The notes beneath the pieces are model-generated. The model searched no databases. It was not told the origin of the DNA and saw only the letters and a program-made list of their open reading frames with translations. A stretch of DNA of 14,294 nucleotides, taken from a virus. Lineage: Duplodnaviria > Heunggongvirae > Uroviricota > Caudoviricetes. The position numbers were made by a program, and so were the translations under genes. Of this stretch, positions 1,858 to 14,294 are shown piece after piece. The first letter of the stretch is position 1. Each line of letters starts with the position of its first letter. The stretch spans positions 1-14,294 of the IMG/VR virus record IMGVR_UViG_3300028952_000022, one strand, 5' to 3'.

Positions 1858-1942
1858 AAAGTGAGCCAGTCAAATGGAAGGTATCGTTAAACTCACCGGT
1901 AGTGTCAGTGGGTCGTCTGAGATGCCTGCATGAGTTATCAGA

Positions 1943-1972
1943 GCCATCAGTACTTAACTGGTGGCTTTTTTT
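1943..1972 (+). terminator. Rho-independent terminator candidate between nanS-p and holin
   Basis: 9-bp stem gccatcagt / actggtggc (one G-U wobble), 5-nt loop, then TTTTTTT (1966-1972). Confidence 0.55.
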
Positions 1973-2007
1973 ATTGTTGTCAGCTTCCGGATAACGGGAG
2001 ACGGGGT

Positions 2008-2224
2008 ATGTACCAGATGGAAAAAATCACAACAGGTGTGTCATACACCACGTCAGCGGNNNNNNNNNNNNNNNNNNNNCCTGCAGTTGCTGGACAGGGT
2101 TTCCCCGTCTCAGTGGGCGGCAATAGGCGTGCTGGGGAGTCTGCTGTTTGGGCTGCTGACATATCTGACTAACCTGTATTTCAAAATCAGAGAGGACCGT
2201 CGTAAGGCTGCACGGGGAGAGTAA
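2008..2224 (+). CDS. S: Class II pinholin, S21-like, with dual start (ATG 2008 and ATG 2017); interrupted by a 20-N gap at 2060-2079 that breaks the frame
   Basis: Before the gap: '[17 protein letters not shown]'; after the gap: '[47 protein letters not shown]'. This matches the phage 21 S pinholin pattern (dual Met start, two TMDs, charged C-tail). The N run is 1 nt off a multiple of 3, so it is a placeholder, not a real frameshift. Confidence 0.8.
2060..2079. other. Assembly gap or masked bases (20 N)
   Basis: Run of 20 'n' characters in the sequence. Confidence 1.
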
Positions 2225-2228
2225 TTCA

Positions 2229-2579
2229 ATGACTCAAAACTATGAACTGATTGTGAAAGGGATCCGCAATTTTGAGAATAAAGTTACGGTAACTTTAGCG
2301 TTACGGGACAAAAAAACGCTTTGACGGTGAAATTTTTGACCTGGACATCTCGCTGGACCGTGTTGAAGGTGCCACGCTGGAGTTTTATGAGGCAGCAGCC
2401 AGAAGGAGCATCAGACAGGTCTTCCTGGATGTTGCTGCCGGGTTATGTGAAGGGGATGAGCAGTCGCCGGAAAAGCGCCCCGTAATTTTAGAGGCGCAGA
2501 ATGTATGGATAACCTACAAAGGAAAGCTACCGGGAATAATTACTGGTTCTCTGAAGACTCCTCCGGAATCACAACCTTA
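2229..2579 (+). pseudogene. YdfR/DUF1327-like prophage protein, frameshifted at an A7 homopolymer (2310-2316)
   Basis: ATG 2229 gives 'MTQNYELIVKGIRNFENKVTVTLALRDKKTL*' (stop 2322-2324). Removing one A gives a continuous ~116-aa protein '...ALRDKKRFDGEIFDLDISLDRVEGATLEFYEAAARRSIRQVFLDV...ESQP*' ending at 2579. This resembles the YdfR-type protein found between holin and lysozyme in E. coli cryptic prophages (from memory). Confidence 0.55.
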
Positions 2580-2643
2580 AGTCACTGACCGGAACAGATA
2601 AACCTGTCCGTGGGCAGAAACCGATAAATCCTGATAAATATCC

Positions 2644-3177
2644 ATGAACACCAAAATCAAATACGGCCTGTCGGCTGCCGTTCTGGCGCTGATTGCCGCT
2701 GGTGCGCCTGCGCCTGACATTCTCGACCAGTTTCTGGATGAAAAGGAAGGTAACCACACCACGGCATACCGTGATGGCGCGGGTATCTGGACCATCTGCC
2801 GCGGTGCCATCCTGGTGGATGGCAAACCTGTCGTTCCTGGCATGAAGTTGTCGAAGGAAAAATGCGACCGGGTTAACGCCATTGAGCGTGATAAGGCGCT
2901 GGCATGGGTGGAGAAAAACATCAGAGTGCCATTGAGTGAACCCCAGAAAGCGGGGATCGCGTCATTCTGTCCGTACAACATTGGCCCCGGTAAGTGTTTT
3001 CCGTCGACGTTTTATAAACGAATTAATGCAGGTGATCGCAGGGGAGCGTGTGAGGCGATTCGCTGGTGGATTAAGGACGGTGGCAGGGACTGCCGTATTC
3101 GCTCAAATAACTGTTACGGTCAGGTATCCCGTCGTGACCAGGAGAGCGCGCTGGCGTGCTGGGGAATCGACAGATAA
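2644..3177 (+). CDS. R: SAR-type endolysin (phage lysozyme, 177 aa)
   Basis: N-terminal signal-anchor-release-like hydrophobic stretch 'YGLSAAVLALIAAGAPAP', then a lysozyme-like domain ('TAYRDGAGIWTICRG...'). Position is downstream of the holin and upstream of Rz/Rz1. Confidence 0.85.
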   Translation: MNTKIKYGLSAAVLALIAAGAPAPDILDQFLDEKEGNHTTAYRDGAGIWTICRGAILVDGKPVVPGMKLSKEKCDRVNAIERDKALAWVEKNIRVPLSEPQKAGIASFCPYNIGPGKCFPSTFYKRINAGDRRGACEAIRWWIKDGGRDCRIRSNNCYGQVSRRDQESALACWGIDR

Positions 3178-3266
3178 GCAGAATATTTTGCTAATAAATG
3201 ACGTTGGCCAAGGCGGATGGATAACACGAAATCCTGCGAACTGGCAAAATGTAAGTGAATAAAAGT

Positions 3267-3306
3267 AAAAACCCCGTTTGTTGGCAGCAAGCGGGGTTTT
3301 GTTTTT
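3267..3306 (+). terminator. Rho-independent terminator ~90 nt downstream of R
   Basis: aaaaaCCCCGTTTG-ttggcag-CAAGCGGGGtttt gttttt: 9-bp stem with one wobble, 7-nt loop, T-run 3297-3306. Confidence 0.6.
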
Positions 3307-3469
3307 ATGGCAGTAAGCTATGGGAGGCTGCCTTGATTGATTTTAGCAAACTGATTAGGGAGTTGCGACTCATGATTAGTCAATTACCAAACTGGAAATT
3401 TTTGCTGGTCTGGAGCATCCCTTTTTTATGGGTAGTATCCCAGTTAATTGTGGCAATTAAGGGGTAGCT

Positions 3470-3601
3470 ATGTCAGACAAACTCATAACGCCGGCAAAGG
3501 TCCTGTGTGTGATTGTCGGTATTTCATTTTCACTAATGCTGGTTGCTCTTTTTCTGTCCCTCGCCTGGGTGATGTTGTCTTCGTCGGGGCTGCTGGGGTG
3601 A
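3470..3601 (+). CDS. Hypothetical small membrane peptide (43 aa, single predicted TMD)
   Basis: ATG 3470 preceded by AAGGGG (3459-3464); translation 'MSDKLITPAKVLCVIVGISFSLMLVALFLSLAWVMLSSSGLLG*'. Below the ORF-track size cutoff, found by hand translation. Confidence 0.35.
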   Translation: MSDKLITPAKVLCVIVGISFSLMLVALFLSLAWVMLSSSGLLG

Positions 3602-3720
3602 CAGTGACTGATGACATCAGCAGAGCGCTGGCTTTTGCTATTAAGTGGGTGGCTGTTGGTATTGCTGTGTCTCCGATGCTGTATGGGCTGGCAAAACTGG
3701 TCATTGCGCTGAAATCGTGA
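3598..3720 (+). CDS. Hypothetical small hydrophobic peptide (~40 aa, possible GTG start), paralogous to the 3732-3818 ORF
   Basis: Frame of track ORF 3448-3720; C-terminal part 'DDISRALAFAIKWVAVGIAVSPMLYGLAKLVIALKS*'. Start codon uncertain (GTG 3598, GTG 3604 or later). Confidence 0.2.
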   Translation: MTVTDDISRALAFAIKWVAVGIAVSPMLYGLAKLVIALKS

Positions 3721-3731
3721 ACTTTAAAAAG

Positions 3732-3818
3732 ATGAGTGCTGAACTTATTCGGGCAATGGCATTTGCCATTCGTATTGTGGCCATTGCTGTTCTGGTCTGG
3801 GCAATCCGTTGGTGGTGA
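3732..3818 (+). CDS. Hypothetical small hydrophobic peptide (28 aa) immediately upstream of Rz
   Basis: ATG 3732 to TGA 3816-3818: '[28 protein letters not shown]'. Motif RA(L/M)AFAI(K/R)xVA is shared with the preceding ORF. Weak ribosome-binding site. Confidence 0.25.
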
Positions 3819-3819
3819 T

Positions 3820-4314
3820 ATGAACCGTGTTCTGTGTGTGGTGATTATTGTCCTGCTGGTAGCCTGTGGTGTGCTTAGTCTGGGGCTGAATCATTACCGC
3901 GATAACGCCATCACCTACAAAGCGCAGCGCGATAAAAAAGTCAGTGAGCTGAAACTGGCGAATGCCACTATTACTGACATGCAGCAGCGCCAGCGAGATG
4001 TCGCTGCGCTTGATGCCAGATACACGAAGGAATTAGCCGATGCGAGAGCTGAAAATGAAACTCTGCGCGCTGATGTTGCCGCTGGTCGTAAGCGCCTGCG
4101 GGTCAACGCCACCTGCCCCGGTACCGTGCGTGAAGCCACCGGCACCTCCAGCGTGGATAATGCAACCGGCCCCCGACTGGCAGACACCGCTGAACGGGAT
4201 TATTTCATCCTCAGAGAACGGTTGATGACAATGCAGAAGCAGCTGGAAGGGGCGCAGGAATATATCCGCACTCAGTGCACTAAGCTGGCTTTTTATTATC
4301 CGGAGGATACATGA
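3820..4314 (+). CDS. Rz: Inner-membrane spanin Rz (i-spanin)
   Basis: ATG 3820 with GGTGGTG upstream; '[75 protein letters not shown]...' is close to lambda Rz. N-terminal TMD plus coiled-coil periplasmic domain. Confidence 0.9.
4040..4225 (+). CDS. Rz1: Outer-membrane lipoprotein spanin Rz1 (o-spanin), embedded in the +1 frame of Rz
   Basis: '[61 protein letters not shown]': lipobox LVVSAC, proline-rich, very close to lambda Rz1. Confidence 0.85.
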
Positions 4315-4535
4315 AGAAATTACGGGTAACCGTAGAACCTTTTCAGGGAACAATTCCGTTCCGTATTTTGCAGCGTGGTCGTGTTCTTGTTGAAGGTTCG
4401 TTCAGTGGTAAATGTACGCAATTACACTCCCGGACCTTTCAGGTGAATGCCACGAATGAAGAGCTAACCGTGGAGTGTACGATGAATGCCGCTAAATGCC
4501 GCATGGTATCCGCTGCATTACAGCCAGTGTGTTGA
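4311..4535 (+). CDS. Hypothetical protein (74 aa); start overlaps the Rz stop (ATGA)
   Basis: ORF '[29 protein letters not shown]...'; translational-coupling-type overlap with Rz. No recognisable family. Confidence 0.3.
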
Positions 4536-4733
4536 GCGACCTTATTATCCATGCGCGGTATTGTCGCCGTATTCCTGCATTAACAGAGACCGCAGCCCGA
4601 CAGGGAGACTCCTCTGCGCGAGTGTGCGGGGATAATCAAAAACGATACACACCGGGGTTTACCGCGTTAACGGAGCGCGGCGTTGTCCCCTCATAGTCGC
4701 CTGTCCGGTGCGATGGTGGAAGAAACCGAACGT

Positions 4734-4934
4734 TCATTTCTCGTTATTTGTCATGCTGGCCGGGCGCAGATGCGTTGCATCTGTTGCCAGCCTTCTCCTG
4801 CAGGCTTCAATAACCCACGCTGAAAAGTTACCGGACCCTTTATGCTCAAGGGCGATGTTGATCTGTTCAATTATGTGATTGGGGAAACGGATATTGCGGG
4901 TTGTGGTTCTGCGGGTACGGTTTTTCGATGACAT
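4734..4934 (-). CDS. ylcI: YlcI/DUF3950-family small prophage protein (66 aa)
   Basis: Internal Met start (ATG at 4934 on the minus strand) with AAGGAA 6 nt upstream; 'MSSKNRTRRTTTRNIRFPNHIIEQINIALEHKGSGNFSAWVIEACRRRL...' matches the YlcI-type protein found next to terminase genes in E. coli cryptic prophages such as DLP12 (from memory). Confidence 0.65.
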   Translation of the reverse strand: MSSKNRTRRTTTRNIRFPNHIIEQINIALEHKGSGNFSAWVIEACRRRLATDATHLRPASMTNNEK

Positions 4935-4975
4935 ATTTATTTCCTTTACTGATTGCCATATGACGGGGATTTTAC

Positions 4976-5341
4976 ATGGCTGAGCTTCGTACACTCCAGA
5001 GCAGAATCAAAACACTGAATACCCGACGGGTGAATATTCTGAAGGGTGAACAGCGTCGTGTCAGTGGCAGTGCACGTGTTTCCCTCAAGCGTCATATCTG
5101 GCTCAGGGACGCCGGGCAGTGCCGTCTCTGTGGTCGTGTGGTTGACCTCTGTGACAGTGAACTCGATCACCGAATTGCACTTCAGTTCGGTGGTGGTAAT
5201 GAGGAGACGAATCTCTGGACGCTCTGTACCGAATGCCATCGACAAAAGTCTGCTCGTGAAGCGGCGAGTGGTATGCCGGACCCGACGCTGCCGGAGGTGT
5301 CCGGAGGTAGTGGCAGAGAGGACGACATCATCGGACTGTAA
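4976..5341 (+). CDS. HNH endonuclease (packaging-associated)
   Basis: HNH motif 'DHRIALQFGG...NLWTLCTECHRQKS' with a Cys pair 'CRLCG'. Position directly upstream of TerS is typical of HK97-like cos phages. Confidence 0.85.
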   Translation: MAELRTLQSRIKTLNTRRVNILKGEQRRVSGSARVSLKRHIWLRDAGQCRLCGRVVDLCDSELDHRIALQFGGGNEETNLWTLCTECHRQKSAREAASGMPDPTLPEVSGGSGREDDIIGL

Positions 5342-5430
5342 CCCAACCCGGGGGGGGTATCATCCGGCGTAAAAAACGATCGCTTTGGACACCGCGCCCC
5401 CTCTCACGCAGAGAAAAAATTCCCGTTTCA

Positions 5431-5559
5431 GGGCAGTTAACATGTTAACTGGCTGCCCGGGCATTTTTGCGGTTTTTATCTTTATTATTCAGTTTGTTGT
5501 GCGGAAAAAATGTTAACAGGCTTTTTCAGCAAATGTTAACCAGGCAGCAGTTAACATTT
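5431..5559. promoter_or_regulatory. cos-region-like array of ATGTTAAC / GTTAACAT inverted repeats (candidate terminase or accessory-factor binding sites)
   Basis: Palindrome GGGCAG-TTAACATGTTAA-CTGGCTGCCC at 5431-5458; AATGTTAAC at 5508-5516; perfect 10-bp inverted repeat AAATGTTAAC-n9-GTTAACATTT at 5531-5559. Located between the HNH and TerS genes. Confidence 0.4.
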
Positions 5560-5631
5560 GCGGCATGAGACGCCGGGAAAAATGGGCTGAACCATACCCG
5601 GCTGAGTGCGTTCTGGACCCGGGAGGAGGCT

Positions 5632-6195
5632 GTGCTGACAACGCAAAAACGAAAATTTGCGCTGGCGCTCATGTCCGGGAAAAACAAAACAGCGTCAGCC
5701 ATTGCCGCCGGTTATTCGGCGAAGACCGCCAGGGTTAAAGGCTCGCAGCTGGCAAAAGATCCTGAGGTGCTTGCGTTTATAGCCCGTAAACAATGCGAGA
5801 CGGTGGAGGTGGATGAGGTTCCTGTTTACCGGCAGAAAAAATCAGAGCAGGAGGATAAACCCCGTCGCCGTGAGGCGGCTGCAATACCACAGCCGGACGA
5901 AAACAATCTGGAGATGCCACCGTCCGCGGTGATGTCTCCTGGTATTGAATATATGGAGGATGGTCTTCCCGATCCGGTGAAAGCCATGGGGCGGATCCTG
6001 GTGGAAAACCTCTGCATTGATCCGAAACTGGCACTGGATGCGGCCTGGCGTCTGGCGCAGTTCACGCACCATAAAAAAGGGGATACCGGGAAAAAATCGG
6101 CAAAAGGTGATGCCGCGAAAAAAGCGGCTAACCGTTTTGCGGTGCCACCGCCCCCCCGACTGGTGGTGAATAACGATAATGAGGGCAACGGATGA
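5632..6195 (+). CDS. Terminase small subunit (P27-family type), GTG start
   Basis: GTG 5632 preceded by GGGAGGAGG; N-terminal 'QKRKFALALMSGKNKTASAIAAGYSAKTARVKGSQLAKDPEV' is an HTH-like TerS signature; stop overlaps the TerL start (ATGA at 6192-6195). Confidence 0.8.
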   Translation: MLTTQKRKFALALMSGKNKTASAIAAGYSAKTARVKGSQLAKDPEVLAFIARKQCETVEVDEVPVYRQKKSEQEDKPRRREAAAIPQPDENNLEMPPSAVMSPGIEYMEDGLPDPVKAMGRILVENLCIDPKLALDAAWRLAQFTHHKKGDTGKKSAKGDAAKKAANRFAVPPPPRLVVNNDNEGNG

Positions 6196-7853
6196 TACCT
6201 GTATGGAGCACAGCCTGCCCGGACTGGGCAGAGCGCCTGAAAAAGGGGCTGTCGATTATTCCGGATCCGATTTATCCGGACGAGGCCGCACATGCCCTGG
6301 CGATTTTTAAACAACTGCGGATTGTGGATGCACCTGGTAGCCCTACGTTCGGGGAGTCCTGTGCACCGTGGGTGTTTGACCTGGTGGCGGCCCTGTTTGG
6401 CTCCTACGATGCGCAGACCGGTGTACGCCATATCAAGGAAGTTTTTATCCTTATCCCCAAGAAAAACTCGAAGTCCACGCTGGCCGCGGGGATCATGATG
6501 ACTGCACTGTTACTGAACTGGCGGCAGGCGGCGGGTTACACGATTCTGGCCCCGACTGTGGAGGTGGCGGCCAACGCCTTCAACCCTGCCCGGGATATGG
6601 TACGACGTGACGATGATCTGGATGACCTCTGCCAGGTACAGACCCATATCCGGACCATCACCCACCGAGTGACGGACACCACCCTGAAGGTGGTGGCAGC
6701 CGATCCGAATACGGTGTCCGGTATCAAGTCCGTGGGTACGCTGATTGATGAGTTGTGGCTGTTTGGCAAGCAGTGCAAGGCGGAGGACATGTTACGTGAA
6801 GCCATAGGCGGCCTTGCCTCCCGCCCGGAAGGGTTTGTGGTGTATACGACCACCCAGTCGAATGAACCGCCCGCCGGGGTGTTCAGACAGAAACTGCAGT
6901 ACGCCCGGGATGTGCGCGACGGCAAAATTCATGATCCGCACTTTCTGCCGGTGATATTTGAACACCCTCCTGAAATGGTGGAAAGCGGGGCTAACCTGCT
7001 GATGGAAAACCTCGCCATGGTCAATCCGAATCTCGGCTATTCAGTGGATGAGGCCTTTCTGTACCGGGAGTACCGTAAAGCCCGGGAAGCCGGTGAAGAG
7101 ACATTCCGGGGGTTCATGTCAAAACACGCCAATGTGGAAATTGGTCTTGCCCTGCGCTCTGACCGCTGGGCGGGGGCTGATTTCTGGGAAGAGCAGGGCC
7201 GTTGTATCAGCCTGGACGATATCCTGCGTCGTGCTGATGTGGTGACGGTGGGGATTGACGGCGGAGGGCTGGATGATCTGCTGGGGATGTATGTGATTGG
7301 GCGTGACCGGGAGACCCGCGAATGGCTGGGCTGGGGCCATGCCTGGGCGCATGAAACCGCGGTGGTCCGACGGAAGAGCGAGGCGTCCCGGTTTCAGGAT
7401 CTTGTTGCCTGTGGAGATATGACCATTGTCCGGCGTGTCGGGGATGACACGGCGGAAGTGGCGGAATATGTGCGTCGCATTCATGAGGCTGAGTTACTGG
7501 ACCATATCGGTATTGACCCGTCAGGGGTGGGGCAGATTCTGGATTCACTGGCGGAAGCCGGGATCCCCGACGGAATTGTGGTGGGGATAAGCCAGGGCTG
7601 GAAACTGGGCGGGGCCATTAAAACCACCGAGCGCAAACTGGCTGAAGGGGTGCTGGTGCATGGTGACCAGCCCCTGATGGCCTGGTGTGTCGGCAATGCC
7701 CGGGTGGAGCCTAAAGGTAACGCCATTCTTATCACCAAACAGGCCAGTGGACGGGGAAAAATTGACCCGCTGATGGCGCTGTTCAATGCGGTCTCCCTGA
7801 TGTCCCTTAACCCGGAACCGAAAAAGAAAGAATATGCGGTTTTTTTCATATAA
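6192..7853 (+). CDS. Terminase large subunit (553 aa)
   Basis: Large ORF translationally coupled to TerS. The track translation includes a Walker-A-like segment 'ILIPKKNSKST' and acidic nuclease-domain residues; size and position are typical of Terminase_1-type TerL. Confidence 0.85.
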   Translation: MIPVWSTACPDWAERLKKGLSIIPDPIYPDEAAHALAIFKQLRIVDAPGSPTFGESCAPWVFDLVAALFGSYDAQTGVRHIKEVFILIPKKNSKSTLAAGIMMTALLLNWRQAAGYTILAPTVEVAANAFNPARDMVRRDDDLDDLCQVQTHIRTITHRVTDTTLKVVAADPNTVSGIKSVGTLIDELWLFGKQCKAEDMLREAIGGLASRPEGFVVYTTTQSNEPPAGVFRQKLQYARDVRDGKIHDPHFLPVIFEHPPEMVESGANLLMENLAMVNPNLGYSVDEAFLYREYRKAREAGEETFRGFMSKHANVEIGLALRSDRWAGADFWEEQGRCISLDDILRRADVVTVGIDGGGLDDLLGMYVIGRDRETREWLGWGHAWAHETAVVRRKSEASRFQDLVACGDMTIVRRVGDDTAEVAEYVRRIHEAELLDHIGIDPSGVGQILDSLAEAGIPDGIVVGISQGWKLGGAIKTTERKLAEGVLVHGDQPLMAWCVGNARVEPKGNAILITKQASGRGKIDPLMALFNAVSLMSLNPEPKKKEYAVFFI

Positions 7854-7876
7854 CCCTGTTCACACTGTAACCATCA

Positions 7877-7900
7877 CGAACCGCTCCGGCGGTTTTTTTA
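7877..7900 (+). terminator. Rho-independent terminator candidate after TerL
   Basis: AACCGC-tccg-GCGGTT stem-loop followed by TTTTTATTTT. Confidence 0.45.
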
Positions 7901-7916
7901 TTTTCAGGAGGCTGAT

Positions 7917-8486
7917 GTGACTCTTAAACGGGCCTGTTCCCTGCTGACGGTGAAATCCTTCAGTGAGGATGAACGGGTGATCACCGGGATTGCGTCAACG
8001 CCTTCTCCGGATCGGGATGGTGACATCCTGGAGCCGGAGGGCGCGGAGTTTGGCAGTGCGATCCCGTTTCTCTGGCAGCATGACCATTCCCGCCCGGTGG
8101 GGCAGTGTACGGTGCGCCGGGTCAGCGAAGGGCTGGAAATCACGGCAACACTGGTGAAGCCCGTACCGGATATGCCGTCGCAACTGGCTGCCCGGCTGGA
8201 TGAGGTCTGGGCGGCCATTAAGACCGGGCTGGTCAGGGGGCTGTCCGTGGGCTTCCGTCCCCATGAATACACCTTTCTGGACGGAGGCGGACTGCATTTT
8301 CTGCGCTGGGAACTGATGGAGGTGTCTGCCGTCACCGTGCCCGCGAATGCGGAATGCACCATCCGGACCATTAAATCTTACGACCGCCCGTTTTCTGCCG
8401 CGTCCGGCAACCGGAAACCGGTGGTGAAAATCGCATCTTCTGACCGGAACGCCAACAACACCAACTGCGCGACAGGGAACGAATAA
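7917..8486 (+). CDS. HK97-family prohead protease (peptidase S78/U35), GTG start
   Basis: CAGGAGG RBS 6 nt upstream of GTG 7917; motifs 'FLWQHD' and 'GLSVGF' typical of HK97 gp4-like proteases. The C-terminal ~30 aa ('[30 protein letters not shown]') may be junction-derived. Confidence 0.75.
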   Translation: MTLKRACSLLTVKSFSEDERVITGIASTPSPDRDGDILEPEGAEFGSAIPFLWQHDHSRPVGQCTVRRVSEGLEITATLVKPVPDMPSQLAARLDEVWAAIKTGLVRGLSVGFRPHEYTFLDGGGLHFLRWELMEVSAVTVPANAECTIRTIKSYDRPFSAASGNRKPVVKIASSDRNANNTNCATGNE

Positions 8487-9747
8487 TACCCAAATCGCAA
8501 GCACGGCTTATGTTATGGCTGCGATCGCTGCCCTCGTGGACTCGTCGCCTGACGCACTGAATACGCTGAACGAGCTGGCTGCGGCGTTGGGCAACGACCC
8601 GAATTTTGCGACCACCATGACTAGCGCGCTTGCGGGTAAGCAACCGAAAGATGCCACCCTGACGGCGCTGGCCGGGCTTGCTACTGCGGCAGACAGGTTT
8701 CCGTATTTTACGGGGAATGATGTTGCCAGTCTGGCAACCCTGACAAAAGTTGGGCGGGATATTCTTGCGAAATCGACCGTTGCCGCCGTTATCGAATACC
8801 TCGGTTTACGAGAACTCGGCACAAGCGGGGAGAAAATACCGTTACTCAGTACAGCGAATACCTGGACTAATCGACAAACATTCAGCGGTGGCCTTTCTGG
8901 TGAACTATCCGGCAATGCTTCTACAGCTGCAAAATTAAAAACTGCCAGGAAAATAAGCAATGTGGCTTTTGATGGTTCCTCCGATATCACATTAAAAGCA
9001 AGTCATGTTGGTGCGTTTGCCTTAGGGAAAACAGGAAGCACCGTTGCGAATGATAAAGCAGTTGGATGGAACTGGAGTAGCGGAGCCTATAACGCAACTA
9101 TTAGTGGTGCATCAACGTTAATTATTCATTTTTATATGGGAGAAGGAAGTTGTCCTGCAGCTCAGTTTCGGATTAATTATAAAAATGGCGGTATTTTTTA
9201 TCGTTCAGCCCGTGATGGTTATGGTTTTGAAGCCGACTGGTCCGAATTTTACACCACCACCAGAAAGCCTTCAGCAGGAGATGTTGGTGCACTGCCGTTA
9301 TCTGGTGGTCAACTGAATGGTGCACTGGGTATCGGAACATCCAGTGCTCTTGGCGGTAATTCGATTGTATTGGGTGATAATGACACGGGCTTTAAACAAA
9401 ATGGCGATGGTAATCTGGATGTTTATGCTAATAACGTCCATGTTATGCGCTTTGTCTCCGGAAGCATTCAAAGTAATAAAACCATAAATATTACAGGGCG
9501 TGTTAACCCCTCGGATTACGGTAACTTTGATTCCCGTTATGTGAAAGATGTTCGACTTGGTTCACAGCAATATTATGGAGTGAACAACTGGCAAACATGG
9601 AATTTCCAGTGCCCTTCAGGTCATGTATTGTCTGGTATTAATGTTCAGGATACAGGGTCTAACTCTGCCGATAATATAGCGGGCGTTTATTACAGACCCG
9701 TTCAAAAGTATATAAATGGCACCTGGTATAATGTAGCGAGCGTTTAA
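8428..9747 (+). CDS. stf: Side tail-fibre protein, 5'-truncated (constant part Sc fused to variable part Sv); first ATG at 8515
   Basis: Frame is open from 8428; '[25 protein letters not shown]' is the conserved mid-fibre motif of lambda Stf / Mu S / P2 H type fibres, which normally lies several hundred residues into the protein. The C-terminal end '[19 protein letters not shown]' is a typical fibre tip. No N-terminal fibre domain is present. Confidence 0.8.
8789..8814 (+). repeat. Left crossover site of the invertible segment (gix/pix-like)
   Basis: TTATCGAATACCTCGGTTTACGAGAA lies inside the tail-fibre ORF; it matches the reverse complement of the right site (11870-11895) at 21 of 26 positions. 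Confidence 0.7.
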
Positions 9748-9748
9748 T

Positions 9749-10282
9749 ATGATGCACTTAAAGAACATAAAAGCGGGTAATGCTAAAACACTGGAACAGT
9801 ATGAGTTAACAAAGAAACACGGAGTTATCTGGCTTTACTCTGAGGACGGAAAAAACTGGTATGAGGAAGTGAAAAACTTTCAGCCAGACACCATAAAGAT
9901 TGTTTACGATGAAAATAATATTATTGTTGCCATAACCAAAGATGCCTCCACACTTAACCCTGAAGGTTATAGCGTCGTTGAGATTCCTGATATTACCGCC
10001 AACCGGCGTGCTGACGACTCAGGTAAATGGATGTTTAAAGATGGCGCAGTCATTAAACGTGTATATACCGAAGAAGAGTTGCGCCTACAGACGGAAAACC
10101 AGAAAAAAATATTATTACAGCAGGCCAGAGAAAAAACGCAGTTCTGGCAAACACAGCTTACTTTGGGGATTATCACTGATTCAGACAGACAGCAACTGAT
10201 GAACTGGATGCGATACGTGCAACAGGTTGAGACAACTGATACCTCGGTTCTTCCTGTAACATTCCCGGAACCACCAGAATAA
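9749..10282 (+). CDS. tfa: Tail fibre assembly protein (Tfa) for the currently expressed fibre tip
   Basis: '[41 protein letters not shown]...ITANRRAD...' is Tfa/gpU-like; it starts 2 nt after the fibre stop. Confidence 0.85.
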
Positions 10283-10283
10283 G

Positions 10284-10310
10284 AAAAGGCCCGTACGGGC
10301 CTTAATTTGT
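10284..10310. terminator. Bidirectional terminator between the convergent tfa genes
   Basis: Perfect palindrome AAGGCCCGTACGGGCCTT (10286-10303), with T-rich sequence on both strands after the hairpin. Confidence 0.6.
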
Positions 10311-10312
10311 TG

Positions 10313-10840
10313 TTATTCTGGTTTCTGTGGCCATTCAGGCTTTGCAGTATCCACACGGCTGACCATAACGCTGTAGCGTTCCCATGATTCCAGTCGTGTG
10401 CGTTCCTCATCAGTTGCCATATTCAGTCTGACAGCACGTTCCAGCGGTTGAATCACAGACTCCGCTTCGGAAAGCAAAGCGGCTTTTTGTAACTCTGCCT
10501 GCTGTTGCAGTTCCTGTTTTGTATATTCCCGCTTTACTACTTTACCATCCAGAAACTTCCAGTTTCCCGAGATATCGGCGCGACGGTTGGCTGTTATATT
10601 CGGTAACTCAACAACACTTAACCCGTCAGGGTTAAGTGTTGATACGTCTTTCTCAATACAACGAATAATCCCCTTCTGGTCATAAGCTATTTTTAAAGTA
10701 TCATCCTGAAAGTTTTTTAATTCGTCATACCAGTTTTTACCGTCTTCTGTATATAGCCAGATAACGCCAGCTTTTTTCGTAAGCTGATACTGCTCAATGG
10801 TTTTGGGGTTTCCGGCGGTAATATTTTTCAGATGTTGCAT
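10313..10840 (-). CDS. tfa: Tail fibre assembly protein, alternative copy (Tfa') in the inverted arm
   Basis: '[41 protein letters not shown]...[13 protein letters not shown]...' is paralogous to the plus-strand Tfa; AGGAGA RBS upstream on the minus strand. Confidence 0.85.
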
Positions 10841-10855
10841 ATATTCTCCTGATGG

Positions 10856-11887
10856 CTATGCCTGTTCAACGTTATACCAGTTACCAGAAATGTATTTTTG
10901 TAGTGGTCGTGACACCATCCAGTCATCTCCATCAACCTCACCAATAATTTGCAATCCTGTTGTCACATGACCATTACCTGGTTCGCAAAGTCCTCCGCGA
11001 TATAATGTGTCAGAACGTCTGCCTCCCAGACGCACATTTCTGATAAAAGAACTATTCAGGTAATCATTTAAGTTTGACCCCCAGCACCCACCAAATATAT
11101 TTCCATCGGTGTTATAACGGACGCCACCCGCAATAAGAGCACCCGGTGAAATAAAGGATTTATCGTTCGGGTTAAACTGCCATAAAGCATCATTACCGCC
11201 ATCGCCACGCATATGAATACATGGAACCGGAAATCCATACTGTTCTGTCAGTAAATACCCAAAGCTGACCGCGCCGGGATAGCCCTGTCCATTGCGAATG
11301 GACAAGCCCTTAACTATCGGCACGTAATGACCACCAGGAGTGGGATTCCAGGCAAACTGCGTCTGAACAAAAGGCGCGGTGGCATTATTCAACTGGTCTG
11401 CAAATGCGCCACTTCCATCAGGAATTATTCCCTGATGAATATATGCAACCCGCTTATAAAAATCAGCAGATGCGGGTTGAAGCCCAAATGCCAGTTGTCC
11501 ATTTGAATAGAATAAAAGGACACCGTCGCCGCCCTGTTTAATACCAGTGTCGTTATCTCCGAGAGTAATGGAATTACCGCCCAGTGCGTTATCTGTACCA
11601 AGCGCCAGCCCACCATCAATTTTGGCCCCGTGGCTGACAGATATAGCACCTGTTCTCAGATTTATAGCGAATGGCCTTAATGGGCCGATATCACCGTTTT
11701 CGCCTTGTCCTTCAGCCGTCGGAATGAAATGAAGAAAATCTTCTGAACGACGGAAAATAAGACCGAAGGCATCATTGAAAATTCGCAGCGCATTCACCGT
11801 GCCAATTTTCAGTTCTCCGGTCATTTTATCGCCGGAACGCTGAACGGCGTTACCAGCCTTGTTTACCGTTTCCTGTAAACCGAGGTT
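10856..11887 (-). CDS. Alternative tail-fibre C-terminal variable segment (Sv'), silent in this orientation (no upstream Sc on this strand)
   Basis: Minus-strand frame is open from 11887 (just inside the right crossover site) to the stop at 10856; fibre-tip sequence '...GNSITLGDNDTGIKQGGDG...QKYISGNWYNVEQA' parallels the plus-strand Sv ('[19 protein letters not shown]...[14 protein letters not shown]'). Confidence 0.75.
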   Translation of the reverse strand, partial: NLGLQETVNKAGNAVQRSGDKMTGELKIGTVNALRIFNDAFGLIFRRSEDFLHFIPTAEGQGENGDIGPLRPFAINLRTGAISVSHGAKIDGGLALGTDNALGGNSITLGDNDTGIKQGGDGVLLFYSNGQLAFGLQPASADFYKRVAYIHQGIIPDGSGAFADQLNNATAPFVQTQFAWNPTPGGHYVPIVKGLSIRNGQGYPGAVSFGYLLTEQYGFPVPCIHMRGDGGNDALWQFNPNDKSFISPGALIAGGVRYNTDGNIFGGCWGSNLNDYLNSSFIRNVRLGGRRSDTLYRGGLCEPGNGHVTTGLQIIGEVDGDDWMVSRPLQKYISGNWYNVEQA

Positions 11888-11895
11888 TTAGATAA
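11870..11895 (+). repeat. Right crossover site of the invertible segment (gix-like)
   Basis: Plus strand TTCCTGTAAACCGAGGTTTTAGATAA; its reverse complement TTATCTAAAACCTCGGTTTACAGGAA is, from memory, within 1 nt of the phage Mu gix site. Confidence 0.75.
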
Positions 11896-11949
11896 TGGCG
11901 GTTTCTGGCCTGCATGGCATGATTTGTGCTTTTGGACGGGAGATTCAGC

Positions 11950-12190
11950 GTGCTGATTGGCTATGTAAGGGTATCAACAAATGACCAGAATACAGATCTG
12001 CAACGAAACGCTCTTGTTTGTGCAGGATATGAACAAATATTTGAAGATAAATTAAGCGGAACAAGGACAGGCCGACCTGGATTAAAACGTGCTTTAAAGC
12101 GCCTTCAAAAAGGTGACGCACTGGTTGTCTGAAAACTGGACTGACTGGTTCACTGTATGCGGCATCTTGTCGTGCTGGTGGTGGAAGCCT
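11950..12190 (+). pseudogene. pin: Pin/Gin/Hin-family serine DNA invertase, truncated (N-terminal ~61 aa intact, then in-frame stops and decay)
   Basis: GTG 11950: 'MLIGYVRVSTNDQNTDLQRNALVCAGYEQIFEDKLSGTRTGRPGLKRALKRLQKGDALVV*'. This matches the Pin/Gin N-terminus including the catalytic Ser in 'VSTNDQ', but TGA stops replace the expected W/R codons ('VV*KLD*L...'); the resolvase core and the C-terminal HTH are absent. Confidence 0.8.
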
Positions 12191-12192
12191 AG

Positions 12193-12325
12193 AAAAAGTA
12201 TCGGGTGTTACTGAACCGTGTTGATACATCAACTGCACCTGATATTGAGTGGCCTACGAACCCTGTCAGGGAGTAATCATTGGGATTATGCCGCAGCACG
12301 TCTTAAGCAAGAACGTGCTGCGGTT
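12193..12325 (+). repeat. Direct repeat copy 1: tfa 3'-end fragment ('...[25 protein letters not shown]') plus an 11-bp-stem hairpin (12291-12323)
   Basis: ~130 bp, near-identical to 13245-13378; hairpin CCGCAGCACGT-n11-ACGTGCTGCGG. Confidence 0.7.
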
Positions 12326-12330
12326 GGATG

Positions 12331-12999
12331 CTATTTTTTCCCTGAAGCGGAAAACATTACTACAGTACCTTGAACCTTGGTTTTAACATTCTCGAAATGC
12401 TCTGAGAGTATATGTGTTAAGCCTTCTTCGGAATCTTTTGTGTTTGAAAAGATGCCTTTCTGATTGTAAATGCGCATCAGTTTTTGACCGAAGCTATTGT
12501 GCACAACTCCATCGCCAAGAATTGTGGCTCCGTATAGAGTTCCATCGTCAGTTAAGGCCTGCGCCGCATTGCGTATTACACAGCTTTTTGTAGATATATT
12601 TCCAGGCAGGCAGTGAAGAAGGTAAAACATGGAAATGGAATCAAATTGACCATGTAACGCCGCGGGATAAGGTTCAAAAACATCATGGCTAATTTTATGT
12701 TTAATTTTTGATTCCCCAGCCCTTGTAGATGCCGCGTTCAGGCTAGCTTCGTTCAAATCCATTAAAGATATCAGACTACTCTCAGGTACGTGAGTAAGGT
12801 AAAACCCAGTTCCAACACCAATATCCAGATGGTTGTTACCTACATGTTCCAGAAAGTGTGGAAGAAGGTGTTCCTTTGTAGGACATCCCCATGCAAGCCG
12901 ATTTGATACTCCCAAAACCCACCAGTCATAAAGCTTTAGGGTAAGTGGTGTGTAAATTTTAGCCCCATCATCTGTGTTTTTTTTCATTGATTTCACCAT
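12331..12999 (-). CDS. Class I SAM-dependent methyltransferase (Rossmann fold), substrate unknown; probable true start at ATG 12987 (GGTGA RBS)
   Basis: Motif I 'LDIGVGTGFY' (GxGxG), acidic post-beta2 'LMDLN'; no DPPY/NPPF-type DNA-MTase motif IV seen. Visibly AT-rich relative to neighbouring phage genes. Confidence 0.65.
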   Translation of the reverse strand: MVKSMKKNTDDGAKIYTPLTLKLYDWWVLGVSNRLAWGCPTKEHLLPHFLEHVGNNHLDIGVGTGFYLTHVPESSLISLMDLNEASLNAASTRAGESKIKHKISHDVFEPYPAALHGQFDSISMFYLLHCLPGNISTKSCVIRNAAQALTDDGTLYGATILGDGVVHNSFGQKLMRIYNQKGIFSNTKDSEEGLTHILSEHFENVKTKVQGTVVMFSASGKK

Positions 13000-13055
13000 G
13001 TTATAGTTTTATTTGTGAATTAAATCAATTATGGCGATGAATTACAAGGGGTTAA

Positions 13056-13325
13056 ATGCTGCCGCAGCATAGCGATATTGAAATAGCCTGGTATGCTTCG
13101 ATACAGCAGGAGCCGAATGGCTGGAAGACCGTCACCACACAGTTCTACATCCAGGAATTCAGTGAGTATATTGCGCCACTGCAGGATGCTGTAGATCTGG
13201 AAATCGCAACGGAGGAAGAAAGATCGTTGCTGGAGGCATGGAATAAATATCGGGTATTGTTGAATCGTGTTGATACATCAACTGCACCTGATATTGAGTG
13301 GCCTGCAAATCCTGTCAGGGAGTAA
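13056..13325 (+). CDS. Truncated/chimeric tail fibre assembly protein fragment (89 aa)
   Basis: C-terminal ~50 aa '[53 protein letters not shown]' matches the conserved Tfa C-terminus; the N-terminal 35 aa are unrelated to the Tfa N-domain. AAGGGG RBS before the ATG. Confidence 0.45.
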
Positions 13326-13378
13326 TCATTGGGATTATGCCGCAGACACGTCGTATGCAGGAACGTGCTGCGGTTAGT
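13245..13378 (+). repeat. Direct repeat copy 2 (tfa 3' end plus imperfect hairpin)
   Basis: Near-identical to 12193-12325; includes an identical 39-bp core 'cgtgttgatacatcaactgcacctgatattgagtggcct'. Confidence 0.7.
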
Positions 13379-13439
13379 TTGTGAGCTTTCGATAGTGGTT
13401 GTTATTTTTGCCCTTATTTGTTCCGGAGGCCATGGTTCA

Positions 13440-13610
13440 ATGGTCCGTCTGCCCCCTGTGGTGATGTCAGCAAAATCAGCCACTGCGCGAACCACAATAG
13501 CCCGGGAAGATGCTGAAGATCACCAGGTAAAGCTGTCAGCGCAGAAACTGGAAGAACTGCTCGCATCAATGGTTAAGGATGAGGTTGATCGCAATGATGG
13601 GATTTATTGA
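13440..13610 (+). CDS. Hypothetical small protein (56 aa)
   Basis: ATG 13440 with GGAGG 10 nt upstream: 'MVRLPPVVMSAKSATARTTIAREDAEDHQVKLSAQKLEELLASMVKDEVDRNDGIY*'. The annotated track start at 13329 lies inside the repeat hairpin and is unlikely. Confidence 0.3.
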   Translation: MVRLPPVVMSAKSATARTTIAREDAEDHQVKLSAQKLEELLASMVKDEVDRNDGIY

Positions 13611-13706
13611 CGTCAGCGAGAGCAGAAGGAAGAACTGAATAACCTGAATGATTTACGCTCAATCAGAGCGATGGCGATTAGCGGCAATCACGCTCGATAA
13701 AATTAA

Positions 13707-13729
13707 CCCCGGTGATCATCCGGGGTTTT
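13707..13729. terminator. Terminator hairpin, probably bidirectional, between the convergent small ORF and the Rha gene
   Basis: CCCCGG-tgatcat-CCGGGG followed by TTTT on the plus strand; on the minus strand the Rha gene stop (13737-13739) lies 8 nt upstream. Confidence 0.55.
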
Positions 13730-13736
13730 GCATTCA

Positions 13737-14294
13737 TTAAAATCGCATCAACCTTTCCACCAATTGTTCTTTACGGGCAACGATCCACCCATGTTGCTCC
13801 AGATAAAATTTAAACCGTTCCAGCGTGCATACCATCGCATCGGCGGGGACTTTTTCTGTGAACTCGACCTGACCGTGTTTATCGAAGTGGATCAGTAATG
13901 CGCATCCATTATTTGGGGCGGGGGAGTTTTGTGCTGCAGGAGGACGTTTGTGGAGTTCTTCTTCCATTGCGTTAAATTTTTCAATGTAAGCTTCTTTTAG
14001 TCTGGCTGCTTTTTTGCCAGTAAATCCCATTACGAGGAACATGAAGCCGTCTTTTGTGATCAGGTAGCATCGTGATTCACGTTCTGCGCCGTTGCCAATT
14101 TCGACAGTCTGAACATCGGCCGAAAAGTTGGCTGATGTAAATTCGGGAGAGCAGTCGAGTGTGTCAATCTTAGCTAAAACGTGTTTATGTTGTTTATCGA
14201 AGTAGTCGGCAACAGCTTGAGAGGTGGTAACCAGGCGACCATCTTTGAAAAAGACTTTTGGTGACTCGTTAGAAAAAGTTATAGCTGTATTCAT
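13737..14294 (-). CDS. Phage regulatory protein, Rha family (185 aa); start codon at the window edge
   Basis: 'VTTSQAVADYFDKQHKHVLAKIDTL...TKDGFMFLVMGFTGKKAARLKEAYIEKFNAMEEEL' is the Rha N-terminal domain signature; ATG is the reverse complement of 14292-14294. Confidence 0.7.
   Translation of the reverse strand: MNTAITFSNESPKVFFKDGRLVTTSQAVADYFDKQHKHVLAKIDTLDCSPEFTSANFSADVQTVEIGNGAERESRCYLITKDGFMFLVMGFTGKKAARLKEAYIEKFNAMEEELHKRPPAAQNSPAPNNGCALLIHFDKHGQVEFTEKVPADAMVCTLERFKFYLEQHGWIVARKEQLVERLMRF

What the first reader, a model, noticed from the sequence alone, without database searches (positions are those of the whole stretch)
8789..12190. Gin/Pin-type invertible tail-fibre switch with intact crossover sites but a dead invertase
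The Mu G-segment / e14 P-segment architecture is fully recognisable: fibre constant region, left crossover site (8789-8814), Sv plus tfa on the plus strand, tfa' plus Sv' on the minus strand, right crossover site (11870-11895), then pin. Both 26-bp sites are well conserved and the reading frame across each site is compatible with in-frame fusion after inversion ('...EYLG|L...' on both arms). The pin gene, however, stops after ~61 codons at TGA codons and has no resolvase core or DNA-binding domain. The host-range switch therefore appears locked in the current orientation unless a related invertase (Gin/Cin/Pin/Hin family) elsewhere in the genome acts in trans.
Basis: partly seen in the sequence, partly recalled or inferred. 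Interest (0 to 1): 0.65.

Follow-up and report, generated by a model that had tools for sequence, protein, structure and literature searches.

The report
Orphan invertible phage tail-fibre segment
This is a 3.1-kb flip-flop DNA segment in a decayed E. coli prophage that has lost its own flipping enzyme yet is still flipped, evidently by a related enzyme encoded elsewhere in the genome; the same element was described in E. coli ST131 in 2014, so it is real but already known.

Summary
Two 26-bp gix-type crossover sites in inverted orientation (8789-8814 and 11870-11895) flank Sv+tfa on the plus strand and tfa'+Sv' on the minus strand. They are followed by a gin/pin gene that ends at TGA after 60 codons and whose 3' ~60% is deleted.

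The inference that the switch is locked is wrong for the lineage. Among 5,426 complete E. coli genomes, 143 carry the same dead invertase with the segment in the window's orientation and 239 carry it flipped. Two isolates from one patient are identical over 13 kb once the segment is flipped in silico. The only complete genome that shares this window's private ~21-25-kb deletion (TUM10008) has the opposite orientation, with breakpoints at the central dinucleotides of the sites.

This is prophage Phi4 of E. coli ST131. Forde et al. 2014 reported the same sites, the truncated invertase, both orientations in one culture, and proposed the Phi1 invertase acting in trans.

What is specific to this window is that the prophage also lacks its head and tail genes and fibre residues 1-506. 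The switch therefore no longer serves a virion.

Novelty: already known. Interest: low.

The parts
8440..8442 (.). Deletion junction (CTG microhomology). It joins codon ~176 of the prohead-protease/capsid gene to codon 507 of the tail-fibre gene, out of frame.
   Evidence: Window versus JJ1886. The same junction occurs in only 1 of 5,426 complete genomes, TUM10008. The chimeric 189-aa ORF is on record in 149 blocks of public assemblies.
8443..8800 (+). Surviving 3' end of the fibre constant region (Sc). It corresponds to residues ~508-626 of the 941-aa fibre. The first in-frame ATG is at 8515.
8789..8814 (.). Left gix-type crossover site TTATCGAATACC-TC-GGTTTACGAGAA, with central dinucleotide at 8801-8802.
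   Evidence: It is identical (26/26) to one of the two sites of the ST131 Phi1 prophage. The breakpoint of the TUM10008 inversion and of the U12A/U13A inversion falls here.
8802..9747 (+). Sv: the variable fibre C-terminus currently fused in frame to the constant region.
   Evidence: ORF 8515-9747 with Pfam gp37_C and gp37_trimer
9749..10282 (+). tfa: the tail-fibre assembly chaperone cognate to Sv.
   Evidence: Pfam Caudo_TAP, E 6e-32
10313..10840 (-). tfa': the tail-fibre assembly chaperone cognate to Sv'.
   Evidence: Pfam Caudo_TAP, E 9e-35
10856..11881 (-). Sv': the alternative fibre C-terminus. It has no start codon of its own at the site and is expressed only after inversion.
   Evidence: In-silico inversion gives an open fusion ORF. 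TUM10008 and U13A carry it fused to the constant region.
11870..11895 (.). Right gix-type crossover site TTCCTGTAAACC-GA-GGTTTTAGATAA, with central dinucleotide at 11882-11883.
   Evidence: 25/26 identical to Mu gixR
11950..12183 (+). gin/pin invertase remnant. It has a GTG start, TGA stops at 12130 and 12142, is gin-like over nt 1-190 and pinE-like over nt 191-234, and the rest of the gene is deleted.
   Evidence: RefSeq annotates it as 'recombinase family protein, incomplete'.
11971..12034 (.). Candidate Fis-dependent recombinational enhancer. Two G-N13-C cores lie at 11971-11985 and 12020-12034, 95.5 and 144.5 nt from the centre of the right site. This is an inference, not a tested result.
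   Evidence: The cores are conserved in Mu gin. Their position matches the '~100 bp from one hix site' placement of the Hin enhancer (PMC3798978).
12179..12325 (+). tfa 3' fragment that replaces the 3' part of the invertase gene. It is a direct repeat of 13228-13375, and the two copies flank a methyltransferase gene.
   Evidence: D1, D2; 88.5% identity over 148 nt; annotation

Best explanation
This is a Gin-type site-specific DNA inversion cassette. It is the invertible tail-fibre segment of the lambdoid prophage inserted at ompW, named Phi4 in E. coli ST131.

The segment between the central dinucleotides at 8801/2 and 11882/3 carries two alternative fibre C-termini, each with its own chaperone. 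Inversion fuses one or the other to the constant fibre 5' region.

The cassette's own invertase is dead: a stop after 60 codons, then loss of the rest of the catalytic domain, helix E and the HTH domain. However, the two crossover sites survive. So, by inference, does the Fis-bound enhancer, which in this enzyme family lies in the first ~150 nt of the invertase gene. The segment therefore remains a substrate for a paralogous serine invertase made elsewhere in the cell.

In ST131 the best candidate is the intact 199-aa invertase of the P2-like prophage Phi1, whose own sites are almost the same. In the background closest to this window (TUM10008), Phi1 and Phi2 are absent. One other Gin-type gene (not located) and an intact PinQ are present there.

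Shown: the sites, the dead gene, precise inversion between near-identical genomes, and the presence of intact paralogues.
Inferred: which enzyme acts, and that the enhancer is retained and needed.

In this window the prophage has also lost its capsid-to-tail genes and fibre residues 1-506. Flipping here most likely has no function for a virion and is a relic reaction.
For: Sites and anatomy.

Dead invertase.

Precise inversion despite the dead gene:
- The in-silico flipped window equals TUM10008 over 8,103 nt, with 0 mismatches and one 3-nt indel.
- U12A flipped in silico equals U13A over 13,000 nt exactly. Both isolates come from one patient (PMC6692316).
- 143 complete genomes have the window's orientation and 239 have the flipped orientation. 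All were selected with a query that requires the truncated invertase plus the junction to the tfa fragment.
- Both orientations occur among assemblies that carry the window's private deletion.

Intact paralogues:
- The Phi1 invertase has Resolvase and HTH_7 domains.
- It is present at 100% identity in genomes of both orientation classes.
- One Phi1 site is identical (26/26) to the window's left site.
- TUM10008 has exactly one further chromosomal place that matches both the 5' 200 nt and the 3' 366 nt of a Gin-type gene. It also has an intact pinQ.

Literature:
- PMC4134206 gives the same sites, a 3106-bp segment, a truncated invertase, both orientations in one culture, and the trans proposal.
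- bioRxiv 10.1101/2022.05.07.487787 confirms switching by PCR and XmnI digestion.
- PinQ inverts the e14 P segment in trans (PMC12529663).
Against: - No experiment shows which enzyme flips this segment.
- In TUM10008, the nearest relative of the window, the Phi1 site (serS-dmsA) and the Phi2 site (aroA-ycaL) are empty. Its P2-like remnant at rcdA-ybjL has no invertase.
- The remaining Gin-type place in TUM10008 was not located, so I could not check that it is intact.
- PinQ is only 36-39% identical to Gin-type enzymes. Its known substrate, the e14 sites, is not close to gix: there was no match within 7 mismatches of 26.
- Within the deletion sub-lineage, the two orientations could descend from a single old flip.
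- The enhancer assignment rests on position and on conservation inside coding sequence, which is constrained anyway.
Confidence: 0.88

Rival explanations
1. One reading: the switch is frozen. With no cis invertase the segment stays in the orientation seen, and the two orientations in databases are old, inherited states.
For: The cis invertase is certainly dead. The nearest complete relative, TUM10008, lacks the Phi1 and Phi2 invertases. It therefore remains possible that this particular isolate no longer flips.
Against: Serial isolates from one patient differ only by the flip (PMC6692316). Same-study strains fall into both orientation classes at 100% identity. Both orientations were found in one culture and one isolate (PMC4134206; bioRxiv 10.1101/2022.05.07.487787). 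Both orientations also occur after the private deletion. TUM10008 still has one Gin-type place and pinQ.
Confidence: 0.07
2. The inversions come from RecA-dependent homologous recombination between the short inverted repeats, not from a serine invertase.
For: The two sites share an identical 11-12-nt core (ACCTCGGTTTAC). A crossover anywhere in that core gives the same product, so sequence alone cannot separate the two routes.
Against: The repeat is only 32 nt at 84% identity. That is too short and imperfect for homologous recombination at the frequency implied by about one third versus two thirds across a clone, by differences between isolates of one patient, and by separately assembled contigs for both orientations from one culture (PMC4134206). 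The sites are textbook gix sequences with the conserved central dinucleotide.
Confidence: 0.03
3. The orientation differences are assembly artefacts, i.e. mis-joins at inverted repeats.
For: Some short-read contigs break at or just past the sites (L017 ends about 38 nt past the left site).
Against: Hundreds of closed long-read genomes show clean, base-perfect inversions with the site halves exchanged as expected. PCR and restriction digestion confirmed the switch.
Confidence: 0.02

Closest known systems
Prophage Phi4 invertible tail-fibre segment of E. coli ST131 (EC958; Forde et al. 2014, PLoS One 9:e104400, PMC4134206)
   Same: It is the same element. It has the same two 26-bp sites, the same ~3.1-kb segment, and the same truncated invertase lacking the HTH domain. 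It sits at the same chromosomal site (ompW, beside trp). JJ1886 is 99.97% identical over window 8440-14294.
   Different: In this window a further ~21-25-kb deletion removes everything from the capsid gene to fibre codon 506. The closest host background (TUM10008) is not ST131-like: it has no Phi1 or Phi2 but does have Rac and Qin.
Bacteriophage Mu G segment with Gin, gixL/gixR and the sis enhancer
   Same: The right site matches gixR at 25/26 and the left site matches gixL at 22/26. The layout is the same: Sc | Sv-U | U'-Sv' | gin. The remnant is 96% identical in DNA to gin over nt 1-190 and matches 57 of 60 residues.
   Different: There is no functional Gin. The host element is a lambdoid prophage, not Mu. 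Sv is P2/T-even gp37-like.
e14 P segment with PinE, also inverted in trans by PinQ from the Qin prophage (Kirigo et al. 2025, PMC12529663)
   Same: An invertible fibre segment in a cryptic prophage that is flipped by an invertase encoded in a different cryptic prophage. The truncated fibre genes no longer serve a virion.
   Different: The e14 sites are not close to these: there was no match within 7 of 26 mismatches. e14 keeps an intact PinE. A host function (blocking T2 adsorption by StfE2) was shown for e14 but has not been tested here.
ST131 prophage Phi1 (P2/P88-like) invertible segment and its invertase WP_000905061.1
   Same: One site is identical to the window's left site, and the outer half of the other differs by one base. 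Its invertase is 95% identical in DNA to the remnant over nt 1-191.
   Different: Its invertase is intact, with Resolvase and HTH_7 domains. It is the likely donor of activity, not the same cassette.

Membership tests
Gin/Cin/Pin/Hin-type DNA inversion system | Two 26-bp crossover sites in inverted orientation, with imperfect dyad symmetry and matching central dinucleotides | tested here: met
   Sites at 8789-8814 and 11870-11895. Central dinucleotides are TC and GA, which are reverse complements. They match Mu gix at 25/26 and 22/26. Chance expectation is 0.
Gin/Cin/Pin/Hin-type DNA inversion system | An adjacent gene for a small serine invertase (Resolvase catalytic domain plus C-terminal HTH_7) | tested here: not met
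   Only 60 codons remain before a TGA. Pfam Resolvase covers profile positions 2-69 of 145, and there is no HTH_7. The 3' part of the gene is replaced by a tfa fragment. The element is therefore an orphan substrate cassette, not a complete system.
Gin/Cin/Pin/Hin-type DNA inversion system | A Fis-bound recombinational enhancer in cis (two Fis sites about 48 bp apart, normally inside the 5' end of the invertase gene) | tested here: inconclusive
   Candidate cores lie at 11971-11985 and 12020-12034, 49 bp apart. One is identical in Mu gin and the other differs by one base. They lie 95.5 and 144.5 nt from the site centre. This placement is consistent with PMC3798978. Fis binding cannot be tested with these tools.
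Gin/Cin/Pin/Hin-type DNA inversion system | The segment actually inverts by exchange at the centre of the sites | tested here: met
   Base-perfect inversions separate window/TUM10008 and U12A/U13A. 143 versus 239 genomes carry the two orientations. Published long-read and PCR evidence agrees.
Invertible phage host-range (tail-fibre) switch | A constant fibre 5' part outside the segment, and two alternative 3' parts with cognate chaperones inside it, both fusing in frame | tested here: met
   The ORF is open in both orientations: 410/437 aa here, and 941/968 aa in full-length relatives. There are two Caudo_TAP genes.
Invertible phage host-range (tail-fibre) switch | It belongs to a phage that can build tails, so the switch changes virion host range | tested here: not met
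   In this window the capsid, portal, tail, J and lom genes and fibre residues 1-506 are deleted. The fibre fragment is out of frame with the upstream ORF. In JJ1886-type relatives these genes are present but interrupted by IS elements.
Shufflon (Rci tyrosine recombinase, sfx repeats) | Multiple segments bounded by 19-bp sfx repeats and an rci gene | tested here: not met
   There is a single segment, the sites are gix-like, and no tyrosine recombinase gene is adjacent.

The most novel reading that the evidence does not exclude
The orphan cassette may not be a neutral relic. It has kept both crossover sites and the enhancer-bearing 5' stub of gin while the prophage around it decayed. It keeps flipping even in a sub-lineage where the fibre is truncated to its last ~435 residues. 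This would fit a host-level use of the alternating fibre-tip/chaperone products, for example blocking adsorption of incoming phages as reported for PinQ-StfE2 in e14. One trans-acting invertase would then coordinate several such cassettes as a small regulon.
Probability: 0.07. Interest if true: 0.5.

Novelty: already known. Interest (0 to 1): 0.12.

Why it matters
The practical value lies mainly in annotation and assembly.

- The locus causes spurious contigs and inconsistent gene calls. RefSeq labels the flipped fibre 'incomplete'.
- It shows that a 'dead invertase' next to intact sites must not be read as a locked switch, because invertases of this family act in trans on any cassette that keeps its sites and, by inference, its enhancer.
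- Biologically it is one more well-documented case of cross-talk between prophages in a pandemic clone.
- It would matter more only if the flipping of truncated fibre fragments turned out to have a host function.

Tried and rejected
Hunting for the trans-acting enzyme in TUM10008, the only complete genome with this window's deletion:
- I first looked at the wrong place for Phi1 (rcdA-ybjL) and found a P2-like remnant without an invertase.
- The true Phi1 site (serS-dmsA) and Phi2 site (aroA-ycaL) are empty.
- There is no e14 at icd.
- A Rac-like prophage is present but has no pinR.
- The first 50 kb of the IncF plasmid hold no invertase.
- The Qin-like prophage holds an intact pinQ. However, blastn shows pinQ is not the Gin-type place counted by the chimeric queries, so that locus remains unlocated.

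Finding the window's source:
- Exact scans of genome contigs and metagenome contigs for the deletion junction found nothing.
- The protein look-up did find the junction.

Other attempts:
- Literature searches for the mapped Gin/Hin enhancer sequence gave only positional statements.
- A second pair of G-N13-C cores exactly 48 bp apart (gene nt 53 and 101) was considered. I set it aside because the Hin enhancer centre, described as lying between the Fis sites, aligns with about nt 53. That alignment rests on my memory of the hin sequence.
- The e14 pix sites were expected to resemble these sites but do not.
- Shufflon and diversity-generating retroelement readings were rejected, because there is no tyrosine recombinase, reverse transcriptase or template repeat.
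Full report
**What the window is.** The 14.3-kb window is the late region of a lambdoid prophage of Escherichia coli. From position 8440 to the end it is 99.97% identical to the prophage inserted in ompW beside the trp operon in E. coli JJ1886 (ST131). Upstream it carries a sialate esterase-like gene, lysis genes, an HNH endonuclease and the terminase genes.

**Checking the observation.**
- The two 26-bp sites are TTATCGAATACCTCGGTTTACGAGAA (8789-8814) and TTCCTGTAAACCGAGGTTTTAGATAA (11870-11895).
- They form a 22/26 inverted repeat that extends to 32 nt.
- A consensus of the pair occurs twice in the window and never in 200 shuffles.
- Against the actual Mu record, the right site matches gixR at 25/26 and the left site matches gixL at 22/26.
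- Between the sites lie a fibre C-terminus (within ORF 8515-9747; gp37_C) and a chaperone (9749-10282) on the plus strand. A second chaperone (10313-10840) and a second fibre C-terminus (10856-11881) lie on the minus strand. Both chaperones are clear Caudo_TAP proteins.
- Flipping the segment in silico at the central dinucleotides (8801/2 and 11882/3) leaves the fibre frame open. It gives 437 aa instead of 410 aa from the ATG at 8515. In relatives with a full-length fibre it gives 968 aa instead of 941 aa.

**The invertase gene.**
- It starts at GTG 11950, as gin does, and reads VLIGYVRVSTNDQ...
- It is cut by TGA at 12130 (Trp61) and again at 12142 (Arg65).
- It is 96% identical to Mu gin over its first 190 nt, against 70% to pinE of K-12. 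It then resembles pinE for about 44 nt.
- Near 12183 it gives way to the 3' end of a tail-fibre-assembly gene. That fragment is a direct repeat of 13228-13375.
- Pfam sees only the first half of the Resolvase domain and no HTH_7. The intact relative from ST131 prophage Phi1 has both domains.
- The enzyme is therefore dead beyond repair by reversion.

**Is the switch locked?** It is not, at least in the lineage.
- I built two 1,000-nt queries. Each joins 400 nt of segment end, in one orientation or the other, to the same 600 nt of right flank. That flank holds the right site, the dead invertase, its junction with the tfa fragment, and the start of the methyltransferase gene.
- Coverage of 80% or more therefore requires both a given orientation and the truncated gene.
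- Among 5,426 complete E. coli genomes, 143 have the window's orientation and 239 have the flipped one. All 60 listed rows in each search are 100% identical to the query.
- Strains from single studies fall into both classes: 4/0 versus 4/1-1 and 4/4; S3, S4 and S9 versus S2, S5, S6 and S7; 2019_APHA versus 2017_APHA; JJ1886 versus EC958.
- U12A and U13A are urine isolates taken a year apart from one patient. The five isolates of that patient differ by 26 core SNPs (PMC6692316). Their 13,000-bp loci become identical, base for base, when the U12A segment is flipped at the central dinucleotides.

**The window's own sub-lineage.**
- At 8440-8442 a CTG microhomology joins codon ~176 of the prohead-protease/capsid gene, out of frame, to codon 507 of the fibre gene. 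The deletion removes about 21-25 kb, depending on the comparator: capsid, portal, connectors, tail, tape measure, J, lom and the N-terminal 506 residues of the fibre.
- Only one complete genome, TUM10008, shares this junction. It has the segment inverted.
- The in-silico flipped window matches TUM10008 over 8,103 nt with no mismatch and a single 3-nt indel.
- The 189-aa chimeric ORF made by the deletion is on record in 149 blocks of public assemblies. Of the five places returned, two are flipped and three have the window's orientation.
- So at least one inversion happened after the invertase gene was truncated and after the private deletion.

**This is already published.**
- Forde et al. 2014 (PMC4134206) describe prophage Phi4 of ST131 strain EC958 with these two sites and a 3106-bp invertible segment.
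- They note a truncated invertase (EC958_1582) lacking the PF02796 domain.
- They found separate PacBio contigs for both orientations from one culture.
- They conclude that another enzyme must act in trans, and they point to the Phi1 invertase because the Phi1 and Phi4 sites are nearly identical.
- A later preprint on ST131 wound isolates confirmed switching within one isolate by PCR and XmnI digestion. The prophage concerned, called BP-4795-like there, has no invertase.

**Checks on the proposed donor.**
- The Phi1 gene (EC958 957668-958267) encodes a 199-aa protein with Resolvase and HTH_7 domains.
- One of its sites is identical (26/26) to the window's left site.
- The gene is present at 100% identity in genomes of both orientation classes, including JJ1886 and EC958.

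**The background nearest the window.** TUM10008 is not ST131-like.
- The Phi1 site (serS-dmsA) and the Phi2 site (aroA-ycaL) are empty.
- Its P2-like remnant at rcdA-ybjL has no invertase.
- It has Rac-like and Qin-like prophages.
- To ask whether any Gin-type gene exists in it, I used chimeric queries anchored on its unique junction so that it ranks first, and compared place counts.
  - The anchor alone gives 1 place.
  - The anchor plus the 3' 366 nt of a Gin-type gene gives 2 places.
  - The anchor plus the 5' 200 nt gives 3 places, one of which is the Phi4 stub.
- So its chromosome holds exactly one further locus similar to both ends of a Gin-type gene. I could not locate that locus.
- TUM10008 also has an intact pinQ (196 aa). 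This is not the locus counted above.
- PinQ was recently shown to invert the e14 P segment in trans (PMC12529663). It is only 36-39% identical to Gin-type enzymes.

**Mechanism.** What follows from established knowledge of the family: Gin, Cin, Pin and Hin are small serine recombinases. Dimers bound at two inverted 26-bp sites synapse on a Fis-bound enhancer located in cis, and strand exchange occurs by a 2-bp staggered cut at the site centre. From my own knowledge, the enzymes complement one another. The enhancer normally lies about 100 bp from one site, inside the 5' end of the invertase gene, and works at a distance (PMC3798978). In this window the surviving 234-nt stub covers that position. 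Two G-N13-C cores at 11971-11985 and 12020-12034 are conserved in Mu gin: the first is identical and the second differs by one base. They lie 95.5 and 144.5 nt from the site centre. I therefore infer that the stub persists as the enhancer and that this is why the cassette stays an efficient substrate. This step is an inference and was not tested.

**Function here.** In the window the fibre fragment is out of frame with the upstream ORF and the prophage has no head or tail genes. The flip therefore cannot change a virion's host range. The simplest reading is a relic reaction driven by a paralogue. A host-level use, as claimed for e14 StfE2, is not excluded, but nothing here supports it.

**Verdict.** The element is already known, so interest is low.

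Noticed in passing
window 2060-2079: A run of 20 N inside the holin region. Related assemblies (L013, L017) have ordinary sequence there.
   Followed up: partly
window 7917-8486 and 8440-8442: A ~21-25-kb deletion with CTG microhomology fuses the prohead-protease/capsid gene, out of frame, to fibre codon 507. The resulting 189-aa chimeric ORF is on record in 149 blocks of public assemblies (sewage and other metagenomes, and a draft genome GCA_022551135.1). The deleted prophage therefore marks a widespread sub-lineage.
   Followed up: yes
window 12179-12325 and 13228-13375, flanking 12331-12999: Two 88.5%-identical 3' fragments of tail-fibre-assembly genes, in direct orientation, bracket a class I SAM-dependent methyltransferase gene on the minus strand. 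This suggests the gene was inserted, and the invertase truncated, by recombination between tfa 3' ends.
   Followed up: partly
window 11950-12183: The invertase stub is a mosaic. It is 96% identical to Mu gin over nt 1-190. It is then 80% identical to pinE, and only 48% to gin, over nt 191-234.
   Followed up: yes
window 9260-9262: The only difference inside the segment between the window and TUM10008 is a 3-nt indel in an ACC/GGT repeat. It changes a run of threonines in Sv (TTT versus TT).
   Followed up: no
window 796-2569: The esterase 3' end and the holin region are only 90% identical to JJ1886, whereas 2591-8447 is 99% identical. This marks a mosaic boundary within the prophage.
   Followed up: no
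window 9693-11895: The tfa / tfa' / Sv' module is 97.3% identical to Yersinia pestis phages vB_YpM_3 and vB_YpM_23. The Sv part resembles P2-type fibres. The cassette is evidently exchanged among different kinds of phage, including P2-like and lambdoid ones.
   Followed up: partly
window 10286-10303: A GC-rich hairpin (AAGGCCC-GTAC-GGGCCTT) sits between the two convergent chaperone genes and looks like a bidirectional terminator. I read it from the sequence and did not scan for it.
   Followed up: no
L003 (EC958 954000-966000): In Phi1 of EC958 the tape-measure and gpU genes lie on the opposite strand to the baseplate and fibre block, directly next to the invertase gene. This is unlike the P2 gene order and may reflect a larger inversion within that prophage.
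   Followed up: no
L002, L019-L023 (TUM10008): The same ompW prophage with the same dead invertase sits in a background that is not ST131-like: it lacks Phi1 and Phi2 and has Rac-like and Qin-like prophages and yciEFG. The element is therefore shared across distinct E. coli lineages.
   Followed up: partly
L012 (U13A) 1440-3674; L002 2240-3637: RefSeq annotation treats the flipped fibre fusion as 'incomplete, missing C-terminus' and the unflipped Sv' as 'hypothetical protein', although both orientations give open frames. The annotation depends on the orientation that was assembled.
   Followed up: yes
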